The notes under the pieces are model-generated. The model saw only the letters and a list, made by a program, of their open reading frames with translations. It was not told the DNA's origin and searched no databases. The position numbers and the translations under genes are program-made. From Microthyrium microscopicum (lineage: Eukaryota), in the NCBI GenBank assembly GCA_010405405.1, contig MU004244.1, positions 3,895 to 67,894 of the forward strand: 64,000 nucleotides of DNA, read 5' to 3'. Below are positions 13,172 to 57,082 of this stretch, piece after piece (within the stretch, counting starts at the first letter, position 1; each line of letters starts with the position of its first letter).

Positions 13172-14413
13172 CTAGGCTCCAGATGTTTCTTGGCCCAGAT
13201 TACCGGTTGCCAGGTCTTTTTTCTTCTTCAGCAACTGCGCCCGCTCACGCTTCAGACGACGAAGCTCCACGACCAAAGGATGTCGATCTCGAGTCAGAGG
13301 ACGCGGAGCAATGCGACGAATTTGGTCGGGGGCAATATAGCCGACGGAACAAGTCTGAATGACCCAATCGCGATCCTCATGGGACCAAATCTGGGGGGAG
13401 AACCAATGTCCTGACTCCACCCGAGCAGTATTGTGACATTCAAGCATATGTTTGGAGAATTGGTAACTGCCTTTCAAGAATTCGAAGCGGTCAGGCTGAT
13501 GGTGCTTGTTATGAATGACTTCTGCGTTACCGCCATCTAAAAACACGTTAGTGTGGCAAAAATATCAAAGAGCGGATTACTTACTGCAGTAACGACACCC
13601 TAGCAGGACCCAGTTTCCATTCTTATCCTGAGTTACAGGGAACTCGGTGACTTCCATGGAGGCTCGTGTGTTCTTGACAACGAGGTCTGCGGGTATATAG
13701 GGAATTGGTGAGGGAGTTGGCGCGAAGGCGTGGATCTGGCGGTCTTCCAAAGCGGCAATTGCCGAATCAACCACTTGGAGGCGAGCATCGATCTGCGCAA
13801 TTGCTGCCTGTGATCCAATTTGGACGGTCGCGGGAGGGTTAGAAGTTCCACTCATCACGATATCTTGCTGAGGCTGCGGATTCGGAACAGATGGGGTGGG
13901 AAGCAGGAACGAAAGACTTGGTAGAAGAGGAACAGACGACCGATCGCCTGGCATCGAGGGAGAAAATGGATCGACTCCAGTTGGGCCATATATCTCGGAG
14001 CGAGTGCCATTGTCCACCAAGCTGAAAGCCACTGGCGTTCTAGGGAAATCTGAAGCTCCTGGCTCGAGCTCAAAATCACATGGATCCAGAGTAGGTATCA
14101 ATGCAGGTGAGTTGGGCATCGTATCGCTAAGGAATGCACCTGGACGAAAAGAGACGGCATCCGGGAGGTTCAGCGACTCGGGATAGCCCCGGAAATGCAT
14201 CGTGTTCGTAAAGCGATCATATTTGACATGCCCATTTGGCGCAGGATAGATGGTTGGCATTATTGGAGCAGTGGGATCCAACATTTGTGAATTTCGAGCT
14301 CGAGAGTCAAGAGGATGATCTACCACTGGAATTTCTTGAAACCGAGAATAGGCATAGCCGTGAGAAGGCGAAGGGAAGTCAGGCTCATTGAGAAAGTCGG
14401 AATCATCAGACAT
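13172..14413 (-). CDS. Atypical zinc-finger family member A (~397 aa); exons 14413-13585 and 13536-13172
   Basis: A 48-nt intron (GTAAGT...CTAAC...TAG) gives FPVTQDKNGNWVLLGCRYCNGGNAE...FEFLKGSYQFSKHMLECH; basic C-terminal helix. Confidence 0.78.
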
Positions 14414-16627
14414 TTTGAAAACTTTGGAGAGTCTTCGTGAGCTAGTGAAGATTTGATGTTGAAGGAAATTGTAGACAGGGAATTTATGAAATGGCGGAAT
14501 GAAGGCTTCGATTGTTCATGAAATTTATATATGGCGCCAACATGATTTCAAGTGATGGTAGTCTCCCTCGAGAGGTTGCCCATGGTGAAAGTGTCCCTTC
14601 AGGTACAGAAATAGTAACATGTTCCAAAGGTTATAGAGCAGTGAAGGAAACGAAGAGCCATTGAAAGAGGGGAAAGAACATGGAAAAAAGACAGGCACCT
14701 CGTCAACAGTAGTGAACTACTGCCTCTTGAAGAGGAGGTGGCGATGATAGGCAAGAGGCACACATCGCCAAAGTGAAACTATTCACCTCCCTTTTAAGAG
14801 GAAAGAGGTTTTGGAACAGCTACAACGCTTTAAAAAACAGAAATCCCAGAAAGAATTCGAGCCTCATCAGACAGATCAATCATGCATCAAGCCCAATTAA
14901 TATCCATATTCAATCCAATCGACTGAACTGGAGCGCCAGAACTTCATGACCAATTGTATGTGTACATAATTTGTAAAGTCCAATCGAGCGGTAAGAAGTC
15001 GCTGCTATGGGATGCTTGAGCGAAGGGACGACGCGACAATTCTGGTCGAAAAGCAACAATAATCAATGCTGAGTTCCACCAACCCGACAGCCGGATCAGT
15101 AGCATGGCCTCGACATGGAGCGTCTGGTACGCTGTCAATACCTTTGATCAACCAAAGACTACGGTAAGGATGGAATTGAGATGATGCCTTTCAGTGTTAC
15201 AATATGAATCAACGCGCGCGCGCTGGGCCGGCCAGGAGTCTTTGGATCCGCTGCCTAATCTATCAAACACATATGGTCATCAGCTGAACTGGATGGGATT
15301 GGACATGATGCCACGGCAATCAAGGAGAATTCAAGGAATGAGCAAAGACATGAATTTCAGCAATCGCTTCCCTGATGACCACCGCCTCCTCCAAAGAAAG
15401 AATATCGAATCTCCTGTTTCACCCCATTGACAATAAACCAAGACACTTTCATGAGAAGTATGATACTTGATCACAGCGCGTGATCGACAATTGATATCGA
15501 CTGACTGGAGCCCGCCACTTATTGCCTCCAGTTGAACAAACATAGTGTGATGATCGGATAGCAATTCGCAGGATGTGCTCCCATTCGAGGGTAAATGTCC
15601 TGACCACTATTTGCCAACCCAATGTATATACAATGCCCTCTCATGAATATCATCCTTGTAAAAGTTGGCACGGAATTGTTCTTCTACAGGGGTCATAAGC
15701 ATCTGTCCAATGAGATGTCAAGCCACACGGGAGCTAATGGTAATCCCTGCGAAATGGATGTCTCCCACTTTACAACAATCATTGTAACAAAGGGATCAGA
15801 AGAGGAGGAAGTCTGGCTGCTTTGCTCATATATCTGGCATTTTCCGGTAGCGGATGATCTGGTAGACGACCAGCGCAAGGCCTCTAAGCATTTGTAGATA
15901 CGCAGTAAATAGATGTAGGTCAGATGGGCATGCACTGAGAATGGCAACTGGTCGAAAATTTGGCTGACTTGCGCTAGAGATGACGGGATCTATCACCATA
16001 TTCCAACAAAACAATGGGCTGTCGTTTACAGCGCATGAGATAGACTTGTTCAGTGGTCATGCCCGGACATGAAAAACAAAGCAATCATATAAGGTAACAA
16101 AGGGCATGAACGAGGCTTTTGATTGGGGCACATGCTTTGAGATTTTACATTGGCAGGAAAGCTTTTTTAAGTCGCAATGGTACTCTCATGGCTTTCGATG
16201 TCAGGAGGACTTTCTTGTTAATTTCAGCTCAAAGTTTTACAATACAAGATGCAATTTGACTAGTTCTATTCTACATATCCAGCGCATGATGTCGAGGCAA
16301 CAAGACCAGAAAAGCTGGTTATGACCCGCATAAAACCCAAAGTAAACGCTGGCATCGCTTGTCCCGAAAACCTCGAGCTTTTGGAAGCCATTGCCATTCT
16401 TGGCAGTCTTGCTTTTGGAATATAAATATACATGCTGCAACCTTCTGCTTTCTGCATCACAGCCTATCATTGCCATCAAGCCAGAAAGAGCAATAAAGTC
16501 ATCGTACCTGCCACCGAAGGCAGCCACTCCTCGCCGCTATCTCCCCATAGTTCATCATTCTTGATACCCTTGATACCAACATCCTTTTCAATCACTGATC
16601 ATGCTTCTCGTCGGAATTTGGCGTCCT

Positions 16628-17785
16628 TTATTCCTTCTTGACGCGCTTCTTTCGAGGCTTGAGTGGCGGTAATTGGCCAGTAGCGCGTCTGTGGTCCTTG
16701 TCGGCCGTGCCTTCATCTCTTGCCTTCTTCTTGCTGGGATGAAGTTTGACCCACACTGGCTTTGGGACGATGCTGCCTTTTTCATCCTCGGTGATGATTC
16801 CCACGTTGCATACCCTATTGATGAAGTCCCAGCCGCCCCGTTCCGTCTTTTTGAGCGGCTTCCAGTCCTCATCGGAGGGAGTCAAGCCATGTGTAGAAGC
16901 CAGATGCTCTTGTAGAGCGCGCTGGGATGAGATGAATGTCAATCGTCTCGCAGTGCCATTCTTCGATACCGCGGCCCGACAGTTTCCTCCATCTGGTATA
17001 GGGTATTAGCATGGCGACGTTATCAACGAGAGGTATTCCTTACCACAGAACTTGCATCCTAACAGGATATATCGCGTGACACCGTCCTTGTAAGGAGTAG
17101 GGTCCTCGACGACAGGAAGATCCTTCATCTGTAACTCTGCCGGGTCGGGGAGCTGAGTCTTGGTGGTGATCTTGACTTTTGGAGGATAGTGGCCGCCAAG
17201 AGCGCGGATCACGACCCAGTCCGGGATCGATGGTCCCAGTTTTGGTAGTGTATACTCCTCGGTATCAGAATCTGCTTCCTCGCCATAGGCGTCATCATCA
17301 CTATCAGGCTCCTCCTGTTTCATCTCCCCATCGTCTCCATCGGACTCTTGTTGGTCAGTGCCCTCAAATACGGTCTCGTATGATCGTTTTTGGGAAGTTC
17401 TAGACGCTCGGGTAGGGAAGAGGTAATCCGGGGCCATCGGGTTATCCTCAAAGTGGAAATCTTCATTTTGAGCAGGAAAGACGATGGAGTCAGTGTTACC
17501 GTCCTTTACGAGATCTATTGGACGAGCAACAGCCGGCTGCGGATGCGCCCTCAGGTGATCGGAGGTCCCATATCGGTTGCTCTGTGATAGCTCTTTGGAA
17601 TAGTGAGAAGTGTGACTATTTCTGCGGAGTGCCAGATTGGCTTGGCGGAAGGAGACGAAATCTGGATCGAAGTCGAGATATTCACTGGGGTCGAAATCAT
17701 CCTGGGGATTGGCCTCTTCCTCACGCACGGAAGACTTGGTGTCCTCGTAGTAGGAAGAGCCGTCGTGCTCGTGGTTGAAAGACAT
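16628..17785 (-). CDS. Atypical zinc-finger family member B (~368 aa); exons 17785-17044 and 16992-16628
   Basis: A 51-nt intron gives LPVVED...ILLGCKFCDGGNCR...LTFISSQRALQEHLASTH; acidic tract and NLS-like end KPRKKRVKKE. Confidence 0.78.
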
Positions 17786-18698: not shown

Positions 18699-19100
18699 TT
18701 AATTCTCCTCATCATCGTATCGCTTGGGCTTTTTGGACGCGCGGCGAGGAAGAAGAGTATTGGCGTTGTGGACTTGCTCTTGCTGGACATTGCCTTGAGA
18801 AGTCTCAGCTTCTTGAGGCGGCTGATAGGCCTCGAATGATAGCTCAAAAGCAGTCTCTGCTTTTTTCGCCTTTGCCTCTGCCAACGCCTTCTTCGCCGCC
18901 GCATCAGCTTTCGCTTTTTGTCGACCAGCCTTTCGATCGTCCTGGCTCTCCTTGGCAAACTTCGAGACGACCACTTTGGGGATGATTCTACAGGTTTCGT
19001 CGTCGGGGATGGTCTCGACATGACAAGGGCTCATAGCCTAATCCCAGCTGTTTCGATATTTTCTCAGTGCCGTAGGCTCCTCATCGTGAACGGCCTTGAC
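18699..19100 (-). pseudogene. Truncated zinc-finger family remnant C (3' part only), closest to member D
   Basis: VKAVHDEEPTALRKYRNSWD*AMSPCHVE...KVVVSKFAKESQDDRKAGR aligns with D (QAVHEEMPTLPKKDRANWNWLKHRCV...KIIVSDIAEESQKKREAGR). In-frame TAG at 19040-19038; no CxxC half found upstream. Confidence 0.7.
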
Positions 19101-19461
19101 TATAGTCATGAGTTACTGACACTCTATTGTCATGCTTCGCGGACAAATCATTATACTATTGCTTTTTGATTACGAGCGACGGACATGGCATATCTCTTTG
19201 GTGCTATGAAACATTTCAAATGGTTTTGAGGGAAGCCTTTGTTCTTATTTTATTCTCTACTTCACGTTTCCCTTGCGGAGCTCGCTTGGGTTGATCATAC
19301 AACTGTTTTACATCAATTATTTTTAAACGAAATGAGTCTTGCCAAAACGACAACCCTGTGCTCGGTACAAGAGCATAATAATAACAAATCAACCGCTGGA
19401 CCACGACAGCACAGTAGCAGCATCCTGAGCACATCTCCTACCTCTTTCCCAGCGAAAGAGT

Positions 19462-21141
19462 TCAATGAATCTTCCCATCTTCGGCCTGATTATATTTCCT
19501 AGACATGTATTCAAGCCACTTGACCTTGCCAGTACGAACGCCTAGACGCGATCCCCGAAAGAAGTCTCGCTGGTCATAAACTTCTTCACCCACCATCATC
19601 CGTCGCTCGCGGCGTAGGGAAGACTCATCCAAAGCAGAAAGCTGGGCACTTTCGTCGTAGAATGTCGCCTGCTGGAAAGGGACTTCGTATTCAATAAGCT
19701 CATCAGCTTCAGACTTCTCAACACCCTTCTTCGCACCCTTCTTCTTCTTTTTGGGGTTACCTCGACCCGCCTCTCGCTTCTTCTGGCTCTCTTCGGCAAT
19801 ATCAGAGACAATTATTTTGGCCTTCAGACTAGCCTTGACGTTGTCAAGTTCGGTTTCTGGAAACTCTTCATAGACACATCGATGCTTTAGCCAGTTCCAA
19901 TTGGCCCGATCTTTCTTTGGCAGGGTCGGCATTTCTTCATGAACAGCTTGAAGGTGCGCGGCAAAAGCTCGTGGCCCTCGGAGGAAACCGAGACGATCTT
20001 TCGAGGCTTGGTAGAATCGCGCATTGCCCCAGGGTCCTGCCACAGCTTGTTAGTAGTAAATGGAGAAGGAATCTGGGGCTCACTTACCACATTCCGGATA
20101 CGGACAGCCTAGGAGTCCTATGAAGCCATTGCCTAGATCGATCATGGGTAGCTCGTCAAGACTTTCGATGGTGGTAGCATCGGGCTGCTCCAAAGCTACC
20201 CCTGGTTGTGGTCGTGCCGGTGCTCGCTTCTTCTTTGGAGTATTCGCGATAGAAGCCGGAGCTGAGGATCCTTGCTTGAATGGCAGTTGTATTGGCTGTG
20301 CCAGATTTGTCAGGTCCGGATTGGGCAGTGTTGGGTCTAGTGACCTCAGCGTTGGTGAATATGATTGAGTGTTGTAGTAGGCCACAGGAGAGGAGGATCC
20401 TTGTTCTTGCGCTGAGAGGTGTGAAATTGGGGTCTCAGCCTGCGAGGGATAGGTTTCTGGTGTTTGCACTCGGCGAGAATATCGTGATTGGCTTGTCAGA
20501 TGTGGTCGCGGCTGCTTTCGCGTTTGCTTGCTATGTGGCTGTCGCTGTTGCTGTCGTGTCTGCTTCTTGGGTCGATTTCGTGCTCGCTTATTGGTCTTCC
20601 GAGAAAGATCTTTGTCTTCAACATATGGTCGCTTTGCTGTGACTGGACTTCCTTGGCCTGCTTGCAAATCGGAAGCCGAATGAGGGATGTTTTGTGTAAG
20701 ACCAGGATCCACTACGGAGGTTTCCATACGGAGAACAGACGCTGGGTCCAATGGCGAAGCTCCAATAGGATCCGGATTCAATGACATGCCAAGAGCAGGA
20801 GACCATCGGTCTGGAGGAAATTGGTAGTACTGGCTGTCGTCATAGCCATCTTCGAACTAGGAGAGATGTCAGTTTGTTTTATCTGAACCGCAACTGCTTC
20901 TACTTACAGTTGTAAGATATGTCTCTAGATTGGGGAGGCCCAGCCAAGCGTGATACTCCTCCGAGCTCATGCCTTCCTTGTAATCAGGTGTTGATGGATT
21001 GAGATCGGCTTCGATCATTCGCATTAGATCCGTGGAGGTCGGATTCTCATAATTGATTTCGGTGTCATATAAGATCTCTGAAACTCGACAACTCACTCCG
21101 CCGGCAAATTTACGGTCCCGAGTCACATACCGAGACGGCAT
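19462..21141 (-). CDS. Atypical zinc-finger family member D (~525 aa); exons 21141-20908, 20856-20088 and 20036-19462
   Basis: Two 51-nt GTAAGT...AG introns join three ORFs in frame; LPMIDLGNGFIGLLGCPYPECGPWGNAR...FLRGPRAFAAHLQAVH; poly-Lys NLS-like run. Confidence 0.78.
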
Positions 21142-22683: not shown

Positions 22684-24954
22684 TCATATCTGGCGCGGCT
22701 TCTTATACAAGTTGTACAATTTGATGCCCTCCTCGTCTTCATCCGCCTCCAGATCGTCCAGGGATCGTTTTGGAGATTTGACTGCAGCGCCATAGCTAAG
22801 ACATGGGCTTTGGCCAGAGACATGATGATTCGGCTTTAACATGTTAGCATGTGAGCTGTGGCGGTCGGTCTGATAGTTCAAGCGGTTAGTTGATGCGGCG
22901 AACTGCATCACAGGTTGGTCGGGCTGCCAGGCTAGAACATAGTTGCCATCGAATGCAGCATTTGGAGTCTGGGCGCGAGCCTGAGCGCGGGCCGACTCCT
23001 GGGCTTCAAGCTTTCGTTTAACCTGCGCCTTTTCGCGGCCTTCACTTCGCTTTTTTTTCTCGCCATCATCAAGCTTCGAAGACGCCATAATGGGGATCAA
23101 TGTATGGAGCTCAGACTTCGGTACCTTACGCCGACCACAGCGTTTCTGAAGCCATATCAAGCGACGAGCATCGTACTTGTCTAATTTTGCACCATTCGCG
23201 TCGACTGGCTCCTCGCCATGGGCAGCTTTCATATGGGCAATCATGCCGAGAGTCCCTTTGAAGAAGACCAGCTTGTCTGGGACATTAGACTTCTTGATGC
23301 CTTGTGTCCATCGTGCGTTACCTCCCGGGCCTGTTATGAGGATGTCAGTGTCTAGGGTGTGAGCGGATAGATCGTACTTACCGCATTGATGATGTGGACA
23401 TCCCAGTAGCACAATGGTGCCGTCGTTTAGATCAAGAATCGGAAGTTTCGTCAGGTCATCCTTGTACTTGAGAGGATTTGGCAGCTCCATCATCGCTCCC
23501 GCGCCCGTGCGAGCTGGCGTACGAGAATTGCTTGCAGTCGTAACAAGGGGAGTAGAAGAGGAAGAGGAAGCGGCGCACGATGGTGACAGTTGCTGGACTG
23601 CACATGATTGTCTCGCTCCTACAGGATTTGGGGCACTCATCTTCTGGGCAGGCGTAGTCGTAGTCGATGCTGTATGTCCATCCAGAACTGGTGAAGCACA
23701 ATTATTTTCAGACGACGTAGCAGTGAGGTACTGTGCGCTTCGCATTGGAGAAGGTGCGAAATGTTTTGGACCAAGCATATCAGGCGATGGACTCTGGGGA
23801 GGAAATACTGAACGGACAACGAACTGCGGACTCAGTAATGGTAGACATGATTGCAACAAGAATATGCCGAGGGCGCTAGGCATCTCTCCTGGGTCAACAG
23901 TGCTGCGATCAACAAAGCCATCGTGGCTGCTGTTGACGTCTACACGAGAGTCGTGATGGTACTGTTCATGCTCGGTCACACCGCGGGAGTATTCAGAGAT
24001 GGCATAGTCATTTGCAGAAGAAACTGCTCGACTATGTACAGAATGTCCAGGCACAGAGTGGACTGCAGAGTTTTCTGGAAGCGTAATCCGCAAGCGCTTT
24101 GGCGAATCTGGTTGGTGGAAATGGTCATCGTCTAATTGTCGTTTCCCACGCTGAGTTGATTTTGGCGCCCGGGAATGGCAAGACTTTGCGATTGAAGTTC
24201 TATTTATCAACTCAGCGCGAGAAGATGTATCATTGACCAGAAGAGTTTGATTGAGAGACACTCTTTTCTGGGTCGTAACTGGCAGATGCTGGACATGCGA
24301 CTTCTCTACCCCGTCTCTAATCCATGGAGTTCCATATTCAGGAATTGTGCTGCCATTAGCTATTCCAAACACTGTCTCCAACTCTTTCGAAGTATGTTGA
24401 GCATAGAGGTCATCCAGTTCTTCTGTGGTACATTGAAGGATCTCGCCATCAAGGTCTATGTCTATATCTGGCGAGGATTTGGTAGTGAATTGAGAAATTG
24501 GGCCTTGGATCGTGGTGGTGAGCTCCTCGGGATTAGTCGATAGATTTGAATACTCCTCTACAACGGCCAGGAATTCATCGGGACTAGTGGATAGTAAATA
24601 CATGGCATCCAATGCTGCAAACGTCTCGAGCGAAAGTGCGACTTCTGGAGTTATGACGGGGGAGACGTGTTGAGGAGAGTATCCGACTAGACTTCTTTCA
24701 ATGTGTGACTCGCTCGGGAGGTCTTGCGCATATTTATCTTCGGGATGATATTCGTCGTAGGTTCCAGGAGACTCGAAGGGCGGCATACCATGGCTTTCCA
24801 AGTCGCGTTTCTGGAGTGAGTGGCTGACATCGCCATCGATGACTTCTTGACTGTCGTACAGCCAGGACGCCTTGTGATCAACAAGTGTTGAGAAGCTATT
24901 CGCGTCTGCGGCTGGCGAGTCGCGACGGCTAGCAGAGTCTCCAGCAGATGACAT
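22684..24954 (-). CDS. Atypical zinc-finger family member E (~739 aa after removing an in-frame intron at 23381-23331)
   Basis: Long ORF with LPILDLNDGTIVLLGCPHHQC-G-PGGNAR...FFKGTLGMIAHMKAAH. A 51-nt stop-free GTAAGT...CTGAC...CAG intron sits at the family-conserved site. Confidence 0.78.
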   Translation of the reverse strand: MSSAGDSASRRDSPAADANSFSTLVDHKASWLYDSQEVIDGDVSHSLQKRDLESHGMPPFESPGTYDEYHPEDKYAQDLPSESHIERSLVGYSPQHVSPVITPEVALSLETFAALDAMYLLSTSPDEFLAVVEEYSNLSTNPEELTTTIQGPISQFTTKSSPDIDIDLDGEILQCTTEELDDLYAQHTSKELETVFGIANGSTIPEYGTPWIRDGVEKSHVQHLPVTTQKRVSLNQTLLVNDTSSRAELINRTSIAKSCHSRAPKSTQRGKRQLDDDHFHQPDSPKRLRITLPENSAVHSVPGHSVHSRAVSSANDYAISEYSRGVTEHEQYHHDSRVDVNSSHDGFVDRSTVDPGEMPSALGIFLLQSCLPLLSPQFVVRSVFPPQSPSPDMLGPKHFAPSPMRSAQYLTATSSENNCASPVLDGHTASTTTTPAQKMSAPNPVGARQSCAVQQLSPSCAASSSSSTPLVTTASNSRTPARTGAGAMMELPNPLKYKDDLTKLPILDLNDGTIVLLGCPHHQCGKYDLSAHTLDTDILITGPGGNARWTQGIKKSNVPDKLVFFKGTLGMIAHMKAAHGEEPVDANGAKLDKYDARRLIWLQKRCGRRKVPKSELHTLIPIMASSKLDDGEKKKRSEGREKAQVKRKLEAQESARAQARAQTPNAAFDGNYVLAWQPDQPVMQFAASTNRLNYQTDRHSSHANMLKPNHHVSGQSPCLSYGAAVKSPKRSLDDLEADEDEEGIKLYNLYKKPRQI

Positions 24955-25600: not shown

Positions 25601-25654
25601 ATCAACGACATCAACGACATCAACGACATCAACGACATCAACGACATCAACGAC
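25601..25654. repeat. Perfect minisatellite (ATCAACGAC)x6
   Basis: Read directly from the sequence. Confidence 0.95.
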
Positions 25655-26146: not shown

Positions 26147-27331
26147 TTACTCCTGTTTTTCCTCCTCCTCCTCCTCTTGCTCATTCATCTTCTTATTCTC
26201 GTTCTGCTGGCCTGCCGCTTCCGCCTGGACCTTTAGACAAGCTTTCTTCTTCTTCTCCTTGTTCTCCTTCATCTTTTGAACATGAACGTCATGTAGTGTT
26301 GAATCCACAGGGCGCGCTAGCAGACTTGGGAAGTCGGCGGCAGTGAGGATTCGACCACCACACCGACGCTTCACCCAGTCAAACTGGTTGCGCTGTCCTT
26401 TAGGAGCATCTGGCTCTTCCAAATGGACTTTGCGTAGGTGCTCTCCAATTCCAATTGGACCGTGTATGAAGTGTACGCGTTTACCGATGAGTCGAGCGTT
26501 GCCATTGCTGCAATTTGGGCAACGAAGCGCCATGTATCGATCCTCCCCAATCTGTACAACGGGGAGTCTACGGGCGGTACGTCCAGTCGTCTCCGGCTGT
26601 ATTAGGGTATCATCAATTGGCTCTTCATCTTTATCTTCATCTTCCCCTTCATCTTCCCCTTCATCTTCCCCTTCATCTTCCCCTTCATCTTCCCCTTCAT
26701 CTTCCCCTTCATCTTCCCTTTCATCTTCCCCTTCATCTTCCCCTTCATCTTCCCCTTCCTGGTTCTCTTCCTGGTTCTCCTCCTGTTCTTGTTCTTCGTC
26801 GTCGGTAACGACAGCGAACTGACCAGGATCTTCTTGGAAGTGACTGGAACGGCCGACTTGGACGTGACTGCGACCAGGTTGTGTATTGTTACTACCAGTT
26901 GGAGTAAGAGTAGAGGCTGTGTCAACAGGTTGGAATTGATTGTTAGCGGATGAGCCACTTGTAGGAGAGTTCATAGCAGACCCGTGAAGACCTCTATTGG
27001 TATGCGAAAGAAGCCGTGGGTCAATCGGAATGGTTTCCGTGTCTTCTGGGAAGGTCATGAGAGAGCGATATCGATCAGCCCCAAGACGTCTAGGTGCTTG
27101 TTGAGAGCTAATGACCTGTCTAAAGAACTCATTTGAGTCATCGTGCTGTCCCCGAGTTGATCGTCGCAGAGCTCCAGGTTGAGATTTGTTACCCGGTGTT
27201 CGTGAGATTGACTGAGGTGTGGTTGAAGTATTGACCTGCTGAAGTTCGCCATCATACTCGGGAGGGTCGGGATAAGTTGCTTGTGTTGAAGCTGCTTCAG
27301 ACATGCTTTGCGGCTGAACTCCAGCGGGCAC
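26147..27331 (-). CDS. Atypical zinc-finger family member F (394 aa, intronless)
   Basis: LPVVQIGEDRYMALRCPNCSNGNAR...FIHGPIGIGEHLRKVH...FDWVKRRCGG; acidic repeat before the finger and Lys-rich tail after it. Confidence 0.8.
   Translation of the reverse strand: MPAGVQPQSMSEAASTQATYPDPPEYDGELQQVNTSTTPQSISRTPGNKSQPGALRRSTRGQHDDSNEFFRQVISSQQAPRRLGADRYRSLMTFPEDTETIPIDPRLLSHTNRGLHGSAMNSPTSGSSANNQFQPVDTASTLTPTGSNNTQPGRSHVQVGRSSHFQEDPGQFAVVTDDEEQEQEENQEENQEGEDEGEDEGEDEREDEGEDEGEDEGEDEGEDEGEDEGEDEDKDEEPIDDTLIQPETTGRTARRLPVVQIGEDRYMALRCPNCSNGNARLIGKRVHFIHGPIGIGEHLRKVHLEEPDAPKGQRNQFDWVKRRCGGRILTAADFPSLLARPVDSTLHDVHVQKMKENKEKKKKACLKVQAEAAGQQNENKKMNEQEEEEEEKQE
26636..26755 (-). repeat. 12-bp coding tandem repeat (TTCATCTTCCCC)x10, one unit variant, encoding GEDE in member F
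   Basis: Read directly; protein shows (GEDE)3-REDE-(GEDE)6. Confidence 0.93.
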
Positions 27332-28948: not shown

Positions 28949-31333
28949 TTACTGCTTATCATCACCTTTATGATGCTTTTTCCACCACGAAGTTTCCTTG
29001 TAGCTCTCCTCAACGTAATCATCCTCGTCATCATCAGATACGCCGGGAACAGATGCTCGAAGAGCCGCTCGAGCTCGAACGACTGATCGGTCGATTCGAT
29101 AAAGTGGACGACCATTAGCATCCGTACGGTAATGGTTTGGCAAGGCCGACTCTCCGCCATGATGAGTTGGGAAGGTTGGAGTATTTTCATGCCGCTCTGG
29201 AAAATTTTGATTGCGGCTTTGGTGAACTCGACGATTGAGAACGTTCCCTTGCTGCATTTGGAAACCCGAGGTCTTCAGCTGCTGCGTAGGTAAGGCTGGA
29301 TCGTGGGCTTGACGCATAGGAAGCTGTGCAGCGCCCTGTTGGCGTACCGGACCGCTGGAATCTGCATGATACTGTCCTGGGTGTTCTGGTAGACAACCTT
29401 GATCTATCCGGGGGCCTCGAGTGGCTCCTTGGTGCGTTTGGATGCTCATGTCGTTACCTTGACGCATCAAAAAGCCAGGGGTATCCTGTTGGCGGAACGA
29501 CATGCCCAATGGATTCACTTGCCACGTAGGGAATCTCGAATTGTGATCTTGAGCAGTCTGGGAGGTCGATGCGCCGGTCTGGTAACTTCCATACCCAATG
29601 CCATATCCTTGATGGGAGATATGTGTAGGTCCTTGGGGCAGCTGCATCTGTGTCACTCCAAGATTCTGCGGAGGGTATGGAATAAATGTGGTAGGGTTGT
29701 TTCCAAACTGTTGATTGTATCGAGCACGAATAGCCGCAGCCTCCAACTCGCGCCTAGCTCTCTCCGCTTTGTCCTTCTTCGCCTTTCTCACACCAATAGC
29801 ACGTGCTTCTCGCTGTGAAGGAAGCAATTGCGACCGTGCTTCCTTGGCTGTCAACGTGCCAATCTCATCTTCGTTAATGACGTCCTTCTTGGCGACTGAC
29901 AGGAGCCATCGAAACTGCTTACGCAATTTGTGGTTCTTAGAGAGTTTCTTTCCCTGCGCATCCAAGGGCTCCTTTCCGTGGCTACATTGAAGGTGTTGTT
30001 GTACTCCCTTAGCGCCTTTGAAAAATACTAAGTAATCATCATGACCTTCTTGTCCCTCAACACGACGGGCGTTGCCGTCGCATTCGGGACAGCGAAGAAG
30101 GAGCAGGGTGCCATCAGCTAGTTTTACTAGTGGTAACTGCGATGCATCTTTCTTGTATAAAGACGATGCATTGGGGCGACTAACGTTTGATGTTGGTAGT
30201 CTAGAGGGCCGAGCACGGGAAGTTGTGTGGGTTGTGTTTTGCTGAGTTGCGAAAGCTGACTGGGATGTATTTTGTTGACATTCAAAGATCACAGCCCCAG
30301 TTCCGCTAATGCCAAGGACACGCCGTGGTGGGTTCAGAACTTCGTCCCCTCCAGAAGTATCACGCGAGGAAGGGTGACTGGAATTGTCGACTTGAGCAGG
30401 GACGGTCGCGCCAGGGACGAAAATGGAAGAGGAAGTTGAATGTGCATGGCCATGGCCATGGCCATGGCCTTCTCCGAAGAAAGTCGAAGAAAAGCCTTGA
30501 CGCTGTAATCGTCTCGTTCCAGCATGCGTATGGCTATATTGGGATTGACTAGACCGTAGTTGATTGAAGTCCGGCTGACTGAGCGGATAATTTTGGGATA
30601 CGCTACGCGGAGAAGGGAAGTATCTTGGGAATCCTGGATATGGTGCCTGTATGGCATCATTACGGTAGTGAGGATTCTTCGGATTCAGGCCGAAATGGTG
30701 GTATTCATGGTCACTTTGAGAATCAACGCCGGGAAAGGTATCAAAATCAGGATCAAATGCTCCTTGTATGTGATGGTTTCCAAAAGGATCGAAATGCGGC
30801 GTTGATACGTGATTGAAGTTTTGCGCAGGCGCGCTAACAGAAGGTTGATTCGAATTCACGAATCCGTCATGTAGACCTGGGTAAAGGTTTCCCGAAGTAG
30901 AATTGAATGGAGTGTCTTCATTTGAGGTAGAGCCATACGGAGCTGCAGGCAAGGTATAAGACGCAGCTGCAAAATCTTGTACTTGGGTTTGCTCTGATGC
31001 TTCTAGACCTCTATCGGATTGGAATCCGGGTAGACCTGGTGGAGTAGTCGAGAAAGACGCTTCGACCTCGAAGTCACTATCGCGTTCCACGAAGGCGGCA
31101 AGTTGAGGATGGAAATGCTCGTTGAATCTCGAGACTGGATGAGGAGTTTCGCGAAGCGAGGCTTGTTCAGCGTGTCTACCTTGGTGCTCTTCTGGGCATG
31201 AAAAGGTCCCATGGGAGGAATCCTGACAATCTTCGACAGAAGTGAAGTTCATGCTACCTGTCAAAGCCATGGGATCGTTCCAAGCATCGCCATCGGATTC
31301 GGTGCGCTCGTCAGACCACTCCATTGCGGACAT
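28949..31333 (-). CDS. Atypical zinc-finger family member G (794 aa, intronless)
   Basis: LPLVKLADGTLLLLRCPECDGNARRVEG...FFKGAKGVQQHLQCSH; charged helix followed by a Q/P/G-rich tail. Confidence 0.8.
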   Translation of the reverse strand: MSAMEWSDERTESDGDAWNDPMALTGSMNFTSVEDCQDSSHGTFSCPEEHQGRHAEQASLRETPHPVSRFNEHFHPQLAAFVERDSDFEVEASFSTTPPGLPGFQSDRGLEASEQTQVQDFAAASYTLPAAPYGSTSNEDTPFNSTSGNLYPGLHDGFVNSNQPSVSAPAQNFNHVSTPHFDPFGNHHIQGAFDPDFDTFPGVDSQSDHEYHHFGLNPKNPHYRNDAIQAPYPGFPRYFPSPRSVSQNYPLSQPDFNQLRSSQSQYSHTHAGTRRLQRQGFSSTFFGEGHGHGHGHAHSTSSSIFVPGATVPAQVDNSSHPSSRDTSGGDEVLNPPRRVLGISGTGAVIFECQQNTSQSAFATQQNTTHTTSRARPSRLPTSNVSRPNASSLYKKDASQLPLVKLADGTLLLLRCPECDGNARRVEGQEGHDDYLVFFKGAKGVQQHLQCSHGKEPLDAQGKKLSKNHKLRKQFRWLLSVAKKDVINEDEIGTLTAKEARSQLLPSQREARAIGVRKAKKDKAERARRELEAAAIRARYNQQFGNNPTTFIPYPPQNLGVTQMQLPQGPTHISHQGYGIGYGSYQTGASTSQTAQDHNSRFPTWQVNPLGMSFRQQDTPGFLMRQGNDMSIQTHQGATRGPRIDQGCLPEHPGQYHADSSGPVRQQGAAQLPMRQAHDPALPTQQLKTSGFQMQQGNVLNRRVHQSRNQNFPERHENTPTFPTHHGGESALPNHYRTDANGRPLYRIDRSVVRARAALRASVPGVSDDDEDDYVEESYKETSWWKKHHKGDDKQ

Positions 31334-33240: not shown

Positions 33241-34007
33241 ATGTTCACAGTAGAAATGGGACCATCAATCCTCGACGATGATATCGACACGGAAGAACCG
33301 GACATATGGACAGCATATCTGCACCACTGCGACCGCAGTATGAGTGAGTTCGCACTATTTATCCAGAGAATGAACATGGACTTCAAGCAATGGATCCACC
33401 AAGAAATTCTATCAAAAGCATACTCCACCGATGCACACGACACCCTCTTCGATACACCATTCACAGCATCGACTAGCTCACCACCCTCTGAGAACAAAAC
33501 CCTCGACGAGACGGCCACAATGGACCCACGTTCCACCGATATCAAACAAGCCATATGGGACGAAGTAGTCTTCATATCGAACTACCCCGTGACCCGACTC
33601 CGCGGCGGGCTATATCTCGAGCTCGGCTGCCCAGACTGTCGTAAGTCCTCCCATATTTTCGCCCCCTCTCCTTCCCTTCTCATTTACCAGTTTGTATTCT
33701 ACGCTAACAGCAACCAGTAGGCAACGCCTACACCATCCACAATCCAGACACGGGCGAGATAAACTACGAATTTCTCAAAGGCGAATACGACTTGACACAT
33801 CATTTACGTATTGTGCATAATAGACAGCCGGTGAATATACATGGGCGAGCAATACTGCAGTCGTTCGATAGAAACTCGATTCTCAAAGCATGTGCGGTGA
33901 GAAGCTTGAGGCTGGAAGAGGTGGGGAAGATCTTGCCGATTGGGATTAGTGACAAGATTCATCCTGAAGTGTTGAAGAAGGAGATTGCTAAGGAGAAAAG
34001 AGGATGA
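33241..34007 (+). CDS. Atypical zinc-finger family member H (~229 aa); exons 33241-33640 and 33718-34007
   Basis: A 77-nt GTAAGT...CTAAC...CAG intron gives YPVTRLRGGLYLELGCPDCLGNAY...YEFLKGEYDLTHHLRIVH; the 3' end may be frameshifted. Confidence 0.72.
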
Positions 34008-48490: not shown

Positions 48491-48537
48491 TCAGCCTTGT
48501 GCAAAGTGGACCTCAGCCTTATGGCGTAACTTCATCT
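48491..48537 (+). promoter_or_regulatory. Conserved upstream element (2x TCAGCCTT + ATGGCGTAACTTCATCT), ~840 bp upstream of pseudogene K
   Basis: Near-identical to 52540-52587 and to the reverse complement of 28171-28239. Confidence 0.5.
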
Positions 48538-49378: not shown

Positions 49379-50060
49379 ATGGCTGTCTATACAAATATCG
49401 ATTGGGGTACTCCCTGGGACGTCCCCTCCGACACTGACTCTCCTGATGCAGCTCAGTATGTAGCAGACCCCCCCGAGGCCAACACGGAATCTGTACAGTT
49501 TGCCGCGATCAACTGGAATAGTGACGCTCCAACAAGGGCAATCACTCCCCCATGTTCGCCAAGAACTATACCTCATCTCGATCCAAGACTTTTCAACCCT
49601 CAGGAGCTAGGAGCATTAGCAGACGTGGACCCGCCATATATGTCTCTTTCTGCGGAAATTCCCACTAGCAAATTGCATTCCAATCTCACTTCCACTTCAC
49701 CTCCAGTGCCTGCTGCGGGTGCCCCATCTGCAACCAGCAAGCACACTTCCAATCGAGCTCCACCCAGCCAAGCTCAGGACTCATCAGGCGATAACAGAGG
49801 TTCCATCAATCCATCAGCGATATTGGCCAAGAATCGAAACGGCAATGCGATCCATATGCCTTCTCAACAGAATCCTTCCCAGAATCCCCGTAAACCTCGT
49901 CGGAATGCCATTCGGACGCGGCAGATCTCGAGTTAGATGAGCTTCCTGCCAAGGCACCTTCCGGTGGACGTTTACAGGTTTTGCACTGTCATTACTGTGG
50001 TGACAGCGCACATGGTGTCCCAGTCAACTAGAACACGGCGGCGCTATACAAAGGAGGAGC
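49379..50060 (+). pseudogene. Frameshifted zinc-finger family member K (G/J-like)
   Basis: ORF 49379-49936 has AILAKNRNGNAIHMP (compare J: AILGYNRKGEPVYVP). After a frameshift near 49930 it reads ELDELPAKAPSGGRLQVLHCHYCGDSAHGVPVN*...YKGG; the HxxxxH half is not found. Confidence 0.65.
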
Positions 50061-52539: not shown

Positions 52540-52587
52540 TCAGCCTTATGAAAAACAGGTTTCAGCCTTATGGCGCAACTTCATCTC
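52540..52587 (+). promoter_or_regulatory. Conserved upstream element (2x TCAGCCTTATG + GCGCAACTTCATCTC), ~740 bp upstream of member I
   Basis: Matches the two other copies of the element. Confidence 0.5.
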
Positions 52588-53326
52588 ATCCTGTATGTCC
52601 ACGTTTATTTCGATTGACAAAGAGCAAAACGGTATTTGACATTTTTTTTATTCTTTCGAGGGGGCTCGGCATACTTCGTGCCCCCATGCTCCTCATATCT
52701 TTACCTTTCGCGACATAGAAGCCTGGTGGGCCGGGTCTCGCGCTTTGAGACTAAAACTCCATCGTGATGAGACTTACCACCAGGAACACTGAGCATAACA
52801 GCGAGCAATCTTTAATATCATGAGCCAGCATTCGCTACATCTCAGGGCAGCATTTCAAATCTTTTATTTAGTACCCGGTGTTCTTTGAGTTCTTATATTA
52901 GAAAAGTACTAGCATAACACTAAGGCTACCTCTAAAGAATACCTCCTTTATTCCCCGCTCCATCTAGTCTTAGTCTTCCTTCTAATGTCTTTCATGAAAT
53001 CTCATATCGTTCCATCTAATAACTTCTTTATAGTGCCGAAGAGCCTCCGGGTGGCTCTGCGTTCGGATTTTTATGTTCGTCGTCTTCTAGGTCATAATCC
53101 ATTCACACCTCTTCATCACCACGTCCCGTCAGCATTTTCTTTTTGATAAAAAGTAAGATATCACGCATTACGAACGACTGGCAAGGTTTTTCCTTTCTAT
53201 TTGTCCGTTATTGTGCATTTCACAAATCAGTACCAAGTCTCGCTGCTCAAAGCCTCAGTTCAGCTCGTCAGAAAGGGTAATTCAAAACTCAAATCGCATC
53301 TGCAACAGGTCACTGCACTTACCATC

Positions 53327-54115
53327 ATGACTCCATCAAATCAAGACGAATCGTACTTTCTTAACGGCGAGGATCGTATTGGCGAATTGCCCAACGCTCG
53401 GCCCAACGTCCAACTTCCTCATCCAACCAATGTCGAGGAGCCGCAGAGCCATGGCGGCGCCTATCTAGATCCGCAACAGGATCCTGCTCGTGCTCCTTAC
53501 TATGTCGTGTCTGCGGAGAAGAAACCGGCAATTCTCGCCGATCTGAGCCATGACTATGGCATGCAATCCGATCAGCAACAGGAGGGCCTCTCAGGTCCTT
53601 CTCAATCGGTCCATTCCCGGTACCCTGATCAGTCTCTTTTCGGCGAGCAAGTGCTGGATGAGCACCATCAAGAGATAAACGACATCATCGTCGATTCCAT
53701 CCCTCCGACACATGTGTCCATACCAACTGCAGACGATGCTATTGTCGACATCGCCGCTCAGCCAGGTGCGTCCACACCAAACTCAAATGACTTGCCGGTC
53801 GTGAACATTGGCAATGGCTTCTTTAGGGAGGTCAGCTGCCCACGCTGCAACGGAGGCAACGCTCGCCAGGAAGGCAATCGCCTAATCTTCCTTCGCGGGG
53901 GCCGCGGAGTACAAGAACATATACGTAAAGTGCATAGAGAAAAGCCTGATGTGCCTTGGGAACAGCGAAAGAACTGGGACTGGTTGTTGGCAATCGGTGG
54001 TGGTCGAACCCTCGCGGCCAATCAACTCCACACTATTCAGACGCGTCCCGTTGTCTCAACAATGCCTTCAGCTCCTCCCACCAATGAAGAAGAGGAAAAC
54101 GAGGACGAGAACTGA
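53327..54115 (+). CDS. Atypical zinc-finger family member I (~262 aa, intronless), closest to F
   Basis: LPVVNIGNGFFREVSCPRCNGGNAR...FLRGGRGVQEHIRKVHREKPD...WDW...GGRTL...RPVVST. Confidence 0.78.
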   Translation: MTPSNQDESYFLNGEDRIGELPNARPNVQLPHPTNVEEPQSHGGAYLDPQQDPARAPYYVVSAEKKPAILADLSHDYGMQSDQQQEGLSGPSQSVHSRYPDQSLFGEQVLDEHHQEINDIIVDSIPPTHVSIPTADDAIVDIAAQPGASTPNSNDLPVVNIGNGFFREVSCPRCNGGNARQEGNRLIFLRGGRGVQEHIRKVHREKPDVPWEQRKNWDWLLAIGGGRTLAANQLHTIQTRPVVSTMPSAPPTNEEEENEDEN

Positions 54116-55774: not shown

Positions 55775-57082
55775 ATGAACCGCGCTACTGCAAACCGAGC
55801 TCCAGCGGCTAACCTGCCTACTTTGCCTCAAAATCAGTCGACTGCGACAGCCCAAGCTCCAACTGTTGCTGTTCATAGTGCAGCTTCGAGCAATACCCGC
55901 GCCATACTTGGCTACAATCGCAAGGGTGAACCGGTTTATGTGCCTCCTACATCCGTCACTCAGCAAATCAATCGACGTCAACCAGCACCAACTGCAATGG
56001 TCGACATGCCGAACGCATCTAACTTACCCATATCGCACCTTCCCGTACTACAGCTGCCGAACGGGGACCTACAAACCTTCCGCTGTCCAGTGGTTTCCTG
56101 TCGTGGCAATGCCCGCCGTGTCCCGGGTACAGCAACCACCAACGATCGACTCGAATTTTTCAAGCATGCAAAAGGCGTTCAGGAACATCTCTGGGATTCG
56201 CATGGGCTTCATCCCACTCATGCCGATGGGCAACCACTTCCCAAAAGTCACCCAAAGCGGAAGCTCTATGCTTGGCTTCGGGCGAAAGCTGGAGACATCG
56301 TCATTCCAGCAGCTCAGAAAGGGACACTGATTGCGATTGAGGCAGACTCTCACATTACTCCTGTAGCTGAGGAAGAGCGGCGCCTTGGTAGAGAGAAGAT
56401 CAAAGCAAAGAAAGAGGCTAAGCGTCTTGAGAAGTTAGCTCAGGAGGCTCGTGCCAAAGCTCGGCAGGATTGGTTCCACCAACAGGCTATTATGCATCAA
56501 CATATGTTCAATCGACAGCTGGCTTACATGCGAAATCAAGCCTACTTGCAATCCCAAAACTACGCTCAACAGCAAGATCACATCCAACACTACTCTAATG
56601 CTCCTCCTGGAACTGGCCATGCTGTGGGTTTAAACACTATGCCACAAAACCGAAATTTACCACAACACTTCACTATGCCACCGACGCAACCTGCCCGAAT
56701 GGCCTCTCCGAACATGCAACAAGGAACCATGATGGGTGAAGGAGTACACCAAGGTGGAGTCCTTAACCTCCAAATGCATCCATATGCGACATACGTTGCT
56801 GCACAAGGAAGCAATTTACAAGGATACACAAATGCACCAATTCACCCGCCGGTTCCTGCTTCTACCGGGAATGCAAACTCCACTACTCTCGCTCAGCACC
56901 GTAAGCATGCCCGTGAAGAGGAGGAATCCTACAACGACCTTGAAAACGACGTCCATGGCCCATGGGCGAAGAAGGTGAAGCAGGGTGACTATGACGATTC
57001 TGACGATTCCGACGGTTCTGAGGATTCCAAAGATTATGAGGATTCTGAGGATTATGAGGATTATGACGATCACGAGAATTAG
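55775..57082 (+). CDS. Atypical zinc-finger family member J (435 aa, intronless), closest to G
   Basis: LPVLQLPNGDLQTFRCPVVSCRGNARRVPG...FFKHAKGVQEHLWDSH; KAKKEAKR helix, Q-rich region, D/S/E/Y repeat tail. Confidence 0.8.
   Translation: MNRATANRAPAANLPTLPQNQSTATAQAPTVAVHSAASSNTRAILGYNRKGEPVYVPPTSVTQQINRRQPAPTAMVDMPNASNLPISHLPVLQLPNGDLQTFRCPVVSCRGNARRVPGTATTNDRLEFFKHAKGVQEHLWDSHGLHPTHADGQPLPKSHPKRKLYAWLRAKAGDIVIPAAQKGTLIAIEADSHITPVAEEERRLGREKIKAKKEAKRLEKLAQEARAKARQDWFHQQAIMHQHMFNRQLAYMRNQAYLQSQNYAQQQDHIQHYSNAPPGTGHAVGLNTMPQNRNLPQHFTMPPTQPARMASPNMQQGTMMGEGVHQGGVLNLQMHPYATYVAAQGSNLQGYTNAPIHPPVPASTGNANSTTLAQHRKHAREEEESYNDLENDVHGPWAKKVKQGDYDDSDDSDGSEDSKDYEDSEDYEDYDDHEN

What the first reader, a model, noticed from the sequence alone, without database searches (positions are those of the whole stretch)
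13172..57082. Local array of 11 genes/pseudogenes sharing one atypical BED/C2H2-like zinc finger
Seen: nine intact genes (A, B, D, E, F, G, H, I, J) and two pseudogenes (C, K) share an ~80-aa module. The consensus is (L/F/Y)P-hydrophobic...G...L(G/R)C-x2/4-C..GNAR...F-x-(K/R)G-x6-H-x4-H...P...W, followed in most members by a basic/charged helix. The Cys-to-His spacer is 23-32 aa. Flanks are acidic, Q/P/S-rich and mostly unalignable, and several members have NLS-like runs. The ORF track hides the family because an intron splits the finger in five members. Known: classical C2H2 fingers have a 12-aa spacer; HL-x3-H endings with longer spacers occur in BED fingers (hAT transposases, BEAF/DREF). 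Inference: an unannotated, rapidly diversifying family of nuclear DNA/chromatin-binding proteins under birth-and-death evolution near RIP heterochromatin. Roles in repeat surveillance, genetic conflict or a lineage-specific developmental programme are possible but unproven.
Basis: partly seen in the sequence, partly recalled or inferred. Interest (0 to 1): 0.9.

Follow-up and report, generated by a model that had tools for sequence, protein, structure and literature searches.

The report
Tandem fungal BED-like zinc-finger genes
A fungal chromosome segment carries nine working and two decayed copies of a fast-diverging gene whose only conserved part is a roughly 95-residue zinc-finger-like domain that no curated family describes, so it is probably a lineage-specific set of nuclear nucleic-acid-binding proteins.

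Summary
Between 13172 and 57082 lie nine intact genes and two decayed copies. All share one module: β-hairpin, C-x2/4-C, GN, F-x-x-G, H-x4-H, then an α/β extension. Five members carry a phase-1 intron straight after the second Cys codon. In gene D, spliced contigs of public run X1 confirm it. Seven of the nine already have public "hypothetical protein" models, so "unannotated" is only partly true.

A profile of five window modules finds 74 representative proteins (E ≤ 0.001). The nearest six are further single-module paralogs, all named Microthyrium microscopicum. Most of the rest are Pezizomycotina proteins with two or three tandem modules, including one chromo-domain and one "CUE domain" protein.

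No Pfam model matches any window member. zf-BED touches only the wider family, at its threshold. Two independent AlphaFold models (pLDDT 88.9 and 84.4) give the same topology. No solved structure matches them (best Z 2.3, C2H2 fingers).

Best reading: a lineage-specific, birth-and-death array of mostly disordered, probably nuclear proteins built on a BED-like C2H2 domain that is not curated. DNA binding is inferred, not shown. It is a new variant of a known kind, of moderate interest.

The parts
13175..14413 (-). Gene A, 397 aa. The finger intron is at 13537-13584 (48 nt).
   Evidence: Public model P0043 is reproduced exactly after removing one GTAAGT..AG intron. The N-half and C-half profiles both hit.
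16631..17785 (-). Gene B, 368 aa. The finger intron is at 16993-17043 (51 nt). B has GNCR in place of GNAR.
   Evidence: P0015 is reproduced exactly. The C-half scores E 1.9e-29.
18699..19112 (-). Pseudogene C, a 3' remnant of a D-like copy. It runs from the second-His helix to the tail, has an in-frame stop, and has lost its N-half.
   Evidence: tblastn with D (P0012) residues 363-426 gives 37.5% identity over 64 aa across a stop, E 4e-8 in a small database. The DNA was read.
19465..21141 (-). Gene D, 525 aa. The finger intron is at 20037-20087. A second intron is at 20857-20907.
   Evidence: P0012 is reproduced exactly. A 1510-nt contig of run X1 joins across both introns.
22687..24954 (-). 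Gene E, 739 aa. The finger intron at 23331-23381 (51 nt) is in frame, so the raw ORF reads through it.
   Evidence: P0002 is reproduced exactly. The donor, branch site and acceptor were read. An X1 contig lies on 24241-24525.
26150..27304 (-). Gene F, an ORF of 385 aa counted from the first ATG. The module lies at 26351-26602 and has no intron.
   Evidence: Module E 1.9e-32. No exact public model was found with three guessed starts.
28952..31333 (-). Gene G, an ORF of 794 aa counted from the first ATG. The module lies at 29885-30181 and has no intron.
   Evidence: Module E 5e-42. X1 contigs lie on 28748-29763 and 29791-30004. No exact public model was found with four guessed starts.
33241..34004 (+). 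Gene H, 229 aa. The finger intron is at 33641-33717 (77 nt). H has GNAY and lacks the downstream Trp.
   Evidence: P0052 is reproduced exactly. The half-profiles hit.
49802..50031 (+). Pseudogene K. It keeps the upstream motif and the N-half of the module (..LP..G..L.CHYCG), with a frame change between them, followed by a stop. There is no C-half.
   Evidence: Three-frame reading. tblastn to P0007 residues 341-391 gives 39% identity across a stop, E 0.003, and to J residues 38-57 and 80-117. The evidence is moderate.
53327..54112 (+). Gene I, 262 aa up to the in-frame TGA. The module lies at 53756-54007. The public model (296 aa) adds 54173-54276 by way of a CT..AC intron.
   Evidence: P0003 maps at 100% identity over aa 1-262. 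The junction was read. No canonical GT..AG model reproduces P0003.
55775..57079 (+). Gene J, 435 aa, one exon. The module lies at 56003-56296 with C-x4-C spacing.
   Evidence: P0001 maps at 100% identity. Module E 3.6e-42. The AlphaFold model has pLDDT 88.9.

Best explanation
The array is a lineage-specific family made by old tandem and segmental duplication followed by strong divergence and occasional gene death. Each gene encodes a mostly disordered protein: a Q/P/S/T-rich, acidic N-terminal part, a basic tail with K/R runs, and in some members an acidic end. The only folded part is one domain of about 95 residues.

That domain is a Cys2His2 zinc finger of the BED-like kind. It has a β-hairpin, a C-x2/4-C knuckle, an extra short β-pair carrying the invariant GN, and a helix with H-x4-H. 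A helix-strand-helix extension is packed onto this core.

The window genes are a single-module branch of a wider Pezizomycotina family, most of whose members carry two or three tandem modules.

Most likely mechanism (inferred): the domain binds zinc through the two Cys and two His and docks the protein on nucleic acid, most probably DNA. The basic segment after the domain adds nuclear import and non-specific affinity. The disordered flanks recruit partners. Paralogs would then differ in their targets.

Shown here: the family, its anatomy, the conserved intron, splicing and expression of D, the wider homology, and a consistent, confident fold.

Inferred: zinc binding, nuclear location and DNA binding.
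For: Family and module:
- define the family. P, two Cys, N, F and two His are invariant in 14 same-species modules.
- The intron is shared in position and phase by five members, and exact public models are rebuilt from the window DNA.
- Spliced contigs cover D, and contigs lie on E and G.

Wider homology:
- A profile made from window sequences only finds 74 representatives at E<=0.001 and 19 at E<=1e-10.
- Of the 61 hits that are neither the window's own nor the six same-species paralogs, a strict pattern finds 38 with two or three modules, 19 with one and 4 with none.
- H-x4-H occurs in 110 of 112 modules and C-x2-C in 101 of 112.
- In alignment A2, C, C, N, H, H are invariant and two Gly are at least 90% conserved.

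Link to BED:
- zf-BED is the only recurrent Pfam match, in 5 of 29 modules. It aligns profile positions 10-44 of 44 onto the Cys..His core.
- zf-BED is already precomputed on P0029, P0075, P0076, P0084 and P0086.

Fold:
- Two independent AlphaFold models give the same order of elements: pLDDT 88.9 with pTM 0.79, and pLDDT 84.4 with pTM 0.73.
- The only structural rows are C2H2 fingers, at low scores: 2lvh at Z 2.3, rmsd 2.8 Å, 44 residues aligned of a 45-residue chain; and 5vmu at Z 2.2.

Hints of chromatin or nuclear function:
- A chromo domain on P0033.
- The source name 'CUE domain-containing protein' on P0040.
- K/R runs in 8 of 9 window proteins.
Against: - No window member, and none of the 15 single-module proteins, reaches any Pfam zinc-finger model even at E<=10. 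The BED link is transitive and marginal.
- No solved structure matches the whole domain.
- No PDB sequence matches either profile. The best hits are eS27 at E 0.1 and ADR6 at E 0.18, and part of the ADR6 match lies on a His tag.
- The tools return no model coordinates, so convergence of the four ligands could not be measured.
- BED and C2H2 fingers can also bind protein or RNA, so the fold does not settle the ligand.
- Expression evidence comes from one run whose RNA nature is a guess. It covers only D, E and G of the seven genes in the stretch laid.
Confidence: 0.6

Rival explanations
1. The same folded zinc domain acts as a protein- or RNA-binding adaptor, for example tethering ubiquitin- or chromatin-linked partners. 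The proteins would then be scaffolds rather than sequence-specific DNA binders.
For: - The domain carries a helix-strand-helix extension that simple DNA-reading fingers lack.
- Relatives carry a chromo domain or are named CUE-domain proteins. Both are protein-recognition modules.
- Each window protein has only one finger. From general knowledge, a single finger is often too little for specific DNA reading.
- The flanks are long and disordered.
Against: - The only family link is to BED and C2H2 fingers. From general knowledge, these are mostly DNA binders.
- A basic segment follows the domain in most members.
- No partner is known.
Confidence: 0.22
2. The genes are remnants or cargo of a mobile element, for example DNA-binding domains derived from a hAT-type transposase. 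The array would then reflect transposition rather than host gene duplication.
For: - From recalled knowledge, BED fingers are typical of hAT transposases.
- The region lies about 10 kb from a RIP-degraded block.
- Copies occur on at least three contigs of the same species, of lengths 1,089,509, 1,739,686 and 506,503.
Against: - No transposase or dimerisation domain appears in any member.
- The paralogs share no nucleotide similarity and no repeats flank them.
- The intron is conserved in position and phase.
- Module identity of 20-47% indicates old, vertically kept genes.
- RIP indices over the array are normal.
Confidence: 0.05
3. The shared motif has no function. The ORFs would be decaying or spurious gene calls, and the similarity only reflects recent common descent.
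For: - Two copies are clearly dead.
- The flanks cannot be aligned.
- Transcript cover was seen for only three genes.
Against: - ORFs of 229-794 codons stay open although the paralogs share no nucleotide similarity.
- The ligand residues are invariant, while the module as a whole is 20-47% identical.
- The introns are canonical and one is confirmed by a spliced contig.
- The module recurs in many other fungi.
Confidence: 0.03

Closest known systems
BED-type zinc finger (Pfam zf-BED, PF02892)
   Same: - It has a Cys-x2-Cys ... His-x4-His signature with a hydrophobic hairpin before the Cys pair and both His on one helix.
- zf-BED is the only Pfam model that recurs on the wider family. It aligns profile positions 10-44 of 44 onto the Cys..His core.
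- zf-BED is precomputed on five relatives.
   Different: - None of 15 single-module members scores at E<=10.
- The best single module reaches 20.4 bits against a cut-off of 20.6.
- The Cys-to-His spacer is longer, 23-32 aa in the window genes, and holds an extra β-pair with an invariant GN.
- A conserved extension of about 40 residues (helix-strand-helix) follows the finger.
- There is no link to a hAT transposase.
- No solved BED structure was reported as a match.
Classical C2H2 zinc finger (for example Kaiso 5vmu, and AFV1p06 2lvh)
   Same: - It has a ββα core with two Cys on a hairpin knuckle and two His on the helix.
- These fingers are the only structural rows found. 2lvh scores Z 2.3 at rmsd 2.8 Å with 44 residues aligned of a 45-residue chain. 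5vmu scores Z 2.2.
   Different: - The Cys-to-His spacer is 23-32 aa. The classical value of 12 is recalled, not tested here.
- No zf-C2H2 Pfam hit appears.
- The window proteins have one isolated finger, not a linker-joined array.
- The Z values are far below a level that would show kinship.
Multi-module Pezizomycotina proteins with the same uncurated module (for example P0009 and P0033 of Lophium mytilinum, P0040 of Venturia effusa, and P0029, named 'uncharacterized C2H2 Zn-finger protein')
   Same: - They are homologous by HMM at E 4e-19 to 1e-3, using a profile built from window sequences only.
- They share the same invariant C, C, N, G, G, H, H and the same predicted topology.
   Different: - These proteins carry two or three tandem modules. 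Most have a Cys and an R-x-(L/V)-(S/T)-x-x-E motif in the extension.
- The window branch has one module per protein, a Trp-containing extension, very long disordered flanks and a shared intron.
- The window branch forms its own clade with support 86/97. One long-branch outsider, P0062, falls inside it.
DUF7896 ('Key lime pathogenicity protein' clusters), Rua1_C and zf-C2H2_AHC1 fungal finger families
   Same: They are the nearest named clusters by language-model features (0.80-0.81) or by predicted structure (TM 0.39). All are fungal C2H2-like fingers. The DUF7896 cluster carries zf-BED on 12% of its members.
   Different: - All scores are below the level the tool calls reliable.
- Pfam gives only one Rua1_C match (E 0.081) among 29 modules, and no DUF7896 or AHC1 match.
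- These are leads only.

Membership tests
zf-BED (PF02892) | Metal-ligand signature C-x2-C ... H-x3-5-H/C | tested here: met
   All nine window members have C-x2/4-C and H-x4-H. In the 74 hits, 110 of 112 modules have H-x4-H and 101 of 112 have C-x2-C. The family definition itself is recalled, not taken from a call.
zf-BED (PF02892) | Score at or above Pfam's gathering cut-off (20.6 bits) | tested here: not met
   None of the 9 window members, and none of 15 single-module members, matches even at E<=10. In the wider family, 5 of 29 modules match at E<=10. The best reaches 20.4 bits. P0029 reaches 26.7 bits over the whole protein, with no single stretch passing.
zf-BED (PF02892) | Fold match to a solved BED finger | tested here: inconclusive
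   Foldseek and VIA-align, run on two models, list no BED structure. The best rows are C2H2 fingers at Z 2.2-2.3. Small fingers score low, so absence is not exclusion.
zf-BED (PF02892) | Binds DNA | not testable with these tools
   No binding assay or DNA-complex prediction was run.
Classical C2H2 finger (zf-C2H2) | Short fixed spacer (about 12 residues) between the second Cys and the first His, and a Pfam zf-C2H2 match | tested here: not met
   The spacer is 23 aa in I and 32 aa in E (sequences). No zf-C2H2 family hit appears. The 12-residue rule is recalled.
Uncurated Pezizomycotina module family (this report) | Significant profile match plus invariant C, C, N, G, G, H, H in register | tested here: met
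   A window-only profile hits multi-module fungal proteins at E down to 4e-19.
Uncurated Pezizomycotina module family (this report) | The four ligands converge on one metal site in a model | not testable with these tools
   The models are confident, but no coordinates are returned. Only the secondary-structure order could be read: Cys pair between strands, both His on one helix.
hAT transposase or domesticated transposase | Transposase catalytic or hAT dimerisation domain in the same protein or locus | tested here: not met
   No such Pfam family appears in any of the nine window proteins or the six same-species paralogs, nor in other window ORFs. The copies share no flanking repeats.
DUF7896 / KLAP1-like | Pfam DUF7896 match | tested here: inconclusive
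   No DUF7896 row appears at E<=10. I did not verify that this model is in the copy searched. The only link is an Atlas feature score of 0.80.

The most novel reading that the evidence does not exclude
The module defines a new, fungus-specific class of sequence-specific DNA-binding domain descended from BED fingers. Its amplification in one species, to at least 15 fast-diverging single-finger genes in clusters, would be a fungal counterpart of animal KRAB-zinc-finger clusters. Each paralog would track a different repeat or lineage-specific target in a genome that also uses RIP.
Probability: 0.12. Interest if true: 0.8.

Novelty: new variant of a known kind. Interest (0 to 1): 0.5.

Why it matters
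Fungal regulator catalogues rest on curated domain models. These proteins carry none, so they are invisible to such catalogues. Seven of the nine window genes are on record only as hypothetical proteins.

This work gives the module a precise definition: about 95 residues, invariant C, C, N, G, G, H, H, a confident and reproducible predicted fold, and a marginal link to BED fingers. That definition would allow a new family model to be built and would add a candidate class of nucleic-acid-binding proteins across Pezizomycotina.

The array is also a clean case of birth-and-death evolution. It shows a conserved intron, dead copies and 20-47% module identity, in a genome that bears a RIP signature, which is expected to oppose gene duplication. 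The finding is of moderate interest rather than transformative, because function is still inferred and the fold belongs to the broad zinc-finger world.

Tried and rejected
- Whole-genome search: no genome is held for this window.
- Word-based protein searches found little. J's module found only itself. Profile A2 against longer proteins gave 7 hits. P0040 found only Venturia relatives.
- PDB sequence profiles gave only eS27 at E 0.1 and ADR6 at E 0.18, partly on a His tag. I read both as chance.
- Structure searches on both models gave no Foldseek row at E<1 and no VIA row above Z 2.3. The Cre recombinase, AP2 and FPPS rows are noise.
- Atlas leads (Rua1_C, DUF7896, AHC1, OrsD) all scored under 0.9 or under TM 0.5 and were not confirmed by Pfam.
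- RNA holders: no RNA holder listed. The single run X1 is 'RNA?' by guess. A, B and F had no cover in the stretch laid, and H, I and J were outside it.
- Exact look-up of seven guessed F and G proteins found none in the collection.
- Earlier findings of this scan: nothing by place, by sequence or by words.
- Literature: the searches 'BED zinc finger / fungi / Dothideomycetes', 'zf-BED / Ascomycota' and 'KLAP1 / Colletotrichum' turned up no description of this module. For PMC5415576 I saw only two passages, which list zf-BED among fungal TF families. For all other papers I saw listings only.
- dN/dS among paralogs was not attempted. The paralogs share no nucleotide similarity, so synonymous sites are saturated.
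- The extra hits P0024 (AF-4, 16 stretches) and P0061 look like low-complexity chance matches.


Full report
**1. Setting**

The window is fungal. The first 2.9 kb are AT-rich (GC 19-29%) with a RIP signature: TpA/ApT is 1.7-2.4 and (CpA+TpG)/(ApC+GpT) is 0.0-0.35. The remaining 58 kb have normal values, 0.68 and 1.30.

Other genes recognised by Pfam:
- a polyprenyl synthetase (3221-4144)
- a P450 (5467-6582)
- four DUF7730/2EXR ORFs (7307-12025, minus strand)
- a metallophosphoesterase (35964-37747)
- a trehalase (44948-46723)
- a β-lactamase/DAP_B protein (60173-61822, minus strand)
- a MYND/PRiA4 protein (63138-63716, minus strand)

No whole genome is held for this window.

**2. Checking the observation**

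A scan of the six frames for GNAR-like words found six obvious modules. An HMM built from the five unsplit ones, followed by separate N-half and C-half HMMs, found both halves at nine loci. Four of these loci (A, B, D, H) have the two halves in different frames, 48-77 nt apart.

Reading the DNA shows the same intron in all four. It is phase 1, directly after the second Cys codon, with a GTAAGT or GTAAGG donor, a CTAAC/CTAAT branch site and an AG acceptor. E has this intron too, but in frame (51 nt, GTAAGT...CTGAC...CAG), so the raw ORF reads through it.

Removing these introns reproduces stored public protein models letter for letter for A, B, D, E and H. J needs no intron.

Two decayed copies exist:
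- C (about 18699-19112, minus) matches only D residues 363-426, at 37.5% identity over 64 aa with an in-frame stop.
- K (about 49802-50031, plus) keeps an upstream motif and the N-half, with a frame change between them. It then hits a stop, and no C-half follows.

All nine intact members keep C-x2/4-C, GN and H-x4-H. P, C, C, N, F, H and H are invariant across 14 same-species modules. Module identity among the nine is 20-47%.

The flanks are 28-38% Q/P/S/T on the N-terminal side and 10-37% K/R in the tails. K/R runs occur in 8 of 9 members. The paralogs share no nucleotide similarity at E<=1e-5, so all copies are old or fast-evolving.

**3. Are the genes real and expressed?**

One public run was offered (X1). 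Its RNA nature is a guess, and it is kept as contigs. Laid on 13100-33099, it gave six pieces at 99% or higher identity.

A 1510-nt contig covers D and joins across 20036/7-20086/7 and 20857-20907. Both skipped parts read CT..AC on the plus strand, which is GT..AG for this minus-strand gene. They are exactly the two introns of the public model. The first of them is the finger intron.

Other contigs lie on E (24241-24525), on G (28748-29763 and 29791-30004) and just 3' of D. A joined form shows that spliced RNA was in this run.

A, B and F were not covered. H, I and J lay outside the stretch laid. Neither fact says anything about their expression.

**4. Relatives**

Word-based search with J's module found only J itself. 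A full HMM search with a profile of the five window modules found 74 representatives at E<=0.001, 19 at E<=1e-10 and 3 at E<=1e-30.

- Seven hits are the window's own gene models: J, E, I, D, B, A and H.
- Six more are single-module proteins with the same architecture (P0004-P0008, P0013). All are named hypothetical proteins of Microthyrium microscopicum.
  - Three have consecutive accessions on one contig.
  - Two are consecutive on a contig whose length, 1,089,509, equals that of the contig holding J.
  - One lies on a third contig.
  - The species therefore has at least 15 intact members in several clusters, and the window is most likely from it.
- The other 61 hits have a different architecture. 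A strict pattern finds 38 with two or three modules, 19 with one and 4 with none. The named ones come from Lophium mytilinum and Venturia species. P0024 and P0061 look like chance low-complexity hits.

The consensus over the extracted modules is p.iv...dg.w.el.Cp.C.gNa...f..G..G...H....H...c..r.l...e...i..g. In a 29-sequence alignment, C, C, N, H and H are invariant and two Gly are at least 90% conserved.

A maximum-likelihood tree places the 15 single-module proteins in one clade against multi-module outgroups, with support 86/97. One long-branch outsider falls inside that clade. Most inner forks are unresolved, and end branches are 0.6-1.9 changes per site.

**5. What is the module?**

Pfam results:
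- No window member matches any model.
- Across 73 hits, the only finger model that appears is zf-BED: P0029 at 26.7 bits and P0040 at 20.0 bits, against a cut-off of 20.6. One hit has a chromo domain.
- Scanning 29 single modules at E<=10, zf-BED is the only family matched more than once (5 of 29, best 20.4 bits). It aligns profile positions 10-44 of 44 onto the Cys..His core.
- zf-BED is also precomputed on P0029, P0075, P0076, P0084 and P0086.
- None of the 15 single-module proteins matches zf-BED at E<=10.

Structure models:
- J's module with 5 sequences gave pLDDT 88.9 and pTM 0.79.
- A P0029 module with 29 sequences gave pLDDT 84.4 and pTM 0.73.
- Both show the same order of elements: β-hairpin, Cys knuckle, short β-pair, a helix carrying both His, a linker, then helix, strand, helix.

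Neither model has a significant match among solved structures. No Foldseek row is below E 1. The best VIA rows are a viral C2H2 finger (2lvh: Z 2.3, rmsd 2.8 Å, 44 residues aligned of a 45-residue chain) and Kaiso (5vmu: Z 2.2). PDB sequence profiles gave nothing credible. Atlas leads point to other fungal C2H2-like families, all below reliable scores.

I could not measure ligand distances, because no coordinates are returned.

**6. Interpretation**

Shown:
- a real local family under birth-and-death evolution
- a conserved intron
- splicing and transcription of at least one member
- membership of a wider, uncurated Pezizomycotina module family
- a confident, reproducible fold with a Cys2His2 layout

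Inferred:
- zinc binding
- nuclear location, from the K/R runs and acidic tails
- nucleic-acid binding, from the BED and C2H2 likeness and from the chromo-domain and 'CUE domain' relatives

The rival readings (protein or RNA adaptor, mobile-element origin, junk) are weighed in their own sections.

The closest paralog pairs are G-J (47%), E-G (42%), F-I (41%) and D-E (40%). Two of these pairs link the left cluster (A-H) to the right one (K, I, J). F and I also share a 136-nt upstream block at 69% identity, in matching gene orientation. Part of the array therefore arose by duplication of larger segments.

**7. Novelty**

The genes are on public record as hypothetical proteins. The domain is not in the Pfam copy searched. 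My three literature searches found no description of it. This is a limited test: a motif of this kind is hard to find by word search, and I could not consult InterPro.

I rate it a new variant of a known kind: a BED- or C2H2-type finger with an added extension, expanded in one lineage.

Noticed in passing
window 7307-12025 (-): This is a second local paralog array. Four consecutive minus-strand ORFs (7307-8110, 8411-9172, 9997-10470, 11210-12025) match DUF7730, and two of them also match 2EXR. All sit near or below the Pfam cut-offs.
   Followed up: no
window 1-2900: An AT-rich block (GC 19-29%) has strong RIP indices and internal direct repeats: 495-809 against 586-898 at 79% identity. A polyprenyl synthetase and a P450 gene follow it directly.
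   Followed up: partly
window 15914-16093 (+): A contig of run X1 joins 15914 to 15978, skipping 63 nt that read GT..AG on the plus strand. It lies between genes A and B. No ORF of 100 aa or more lies there. It may be a small or non-coding spliced transcript.
   Followed up: partly
window 27649-27783 and 53000-53128: A 136-nt block, 69% identical, lies upstream of F and of I in matching gene orientation. F and I are also each other's closest paralogs. It may be a shared promoter, 5' UTR or small upstream exon.
   Followed up: no
window 48487-48543 and 52536-52592: A 57-nt direct repeat, 79% identical, lies about 0.5-0.8 kb upstream of pseudogene K and of gene I.
   Followed up: no
window 54110-54172: The public model of gene I (P0003) reaches its last 34 residues through an intron that reads CT..AC on the gene's own strand. 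The plain ORF stops at TGA 54113-54115. The 3' end of I is doubtful.
   Followed up: partly
window 49802-49861; J residues 38-57; P0008: A second short conserved motif, of the form ..AIL..NR.G..(V/I)..P, lies about 20 residues before the module in J, in pseudogene K and in the same-species paralog P0008.
   Followed up: no
P0008 (outside the window): This same-species paralog model lacks the N-half of the module. It has no Cys pair before GGNARR. The finger intron may have been mis-called in that public model.
   Followed up: no
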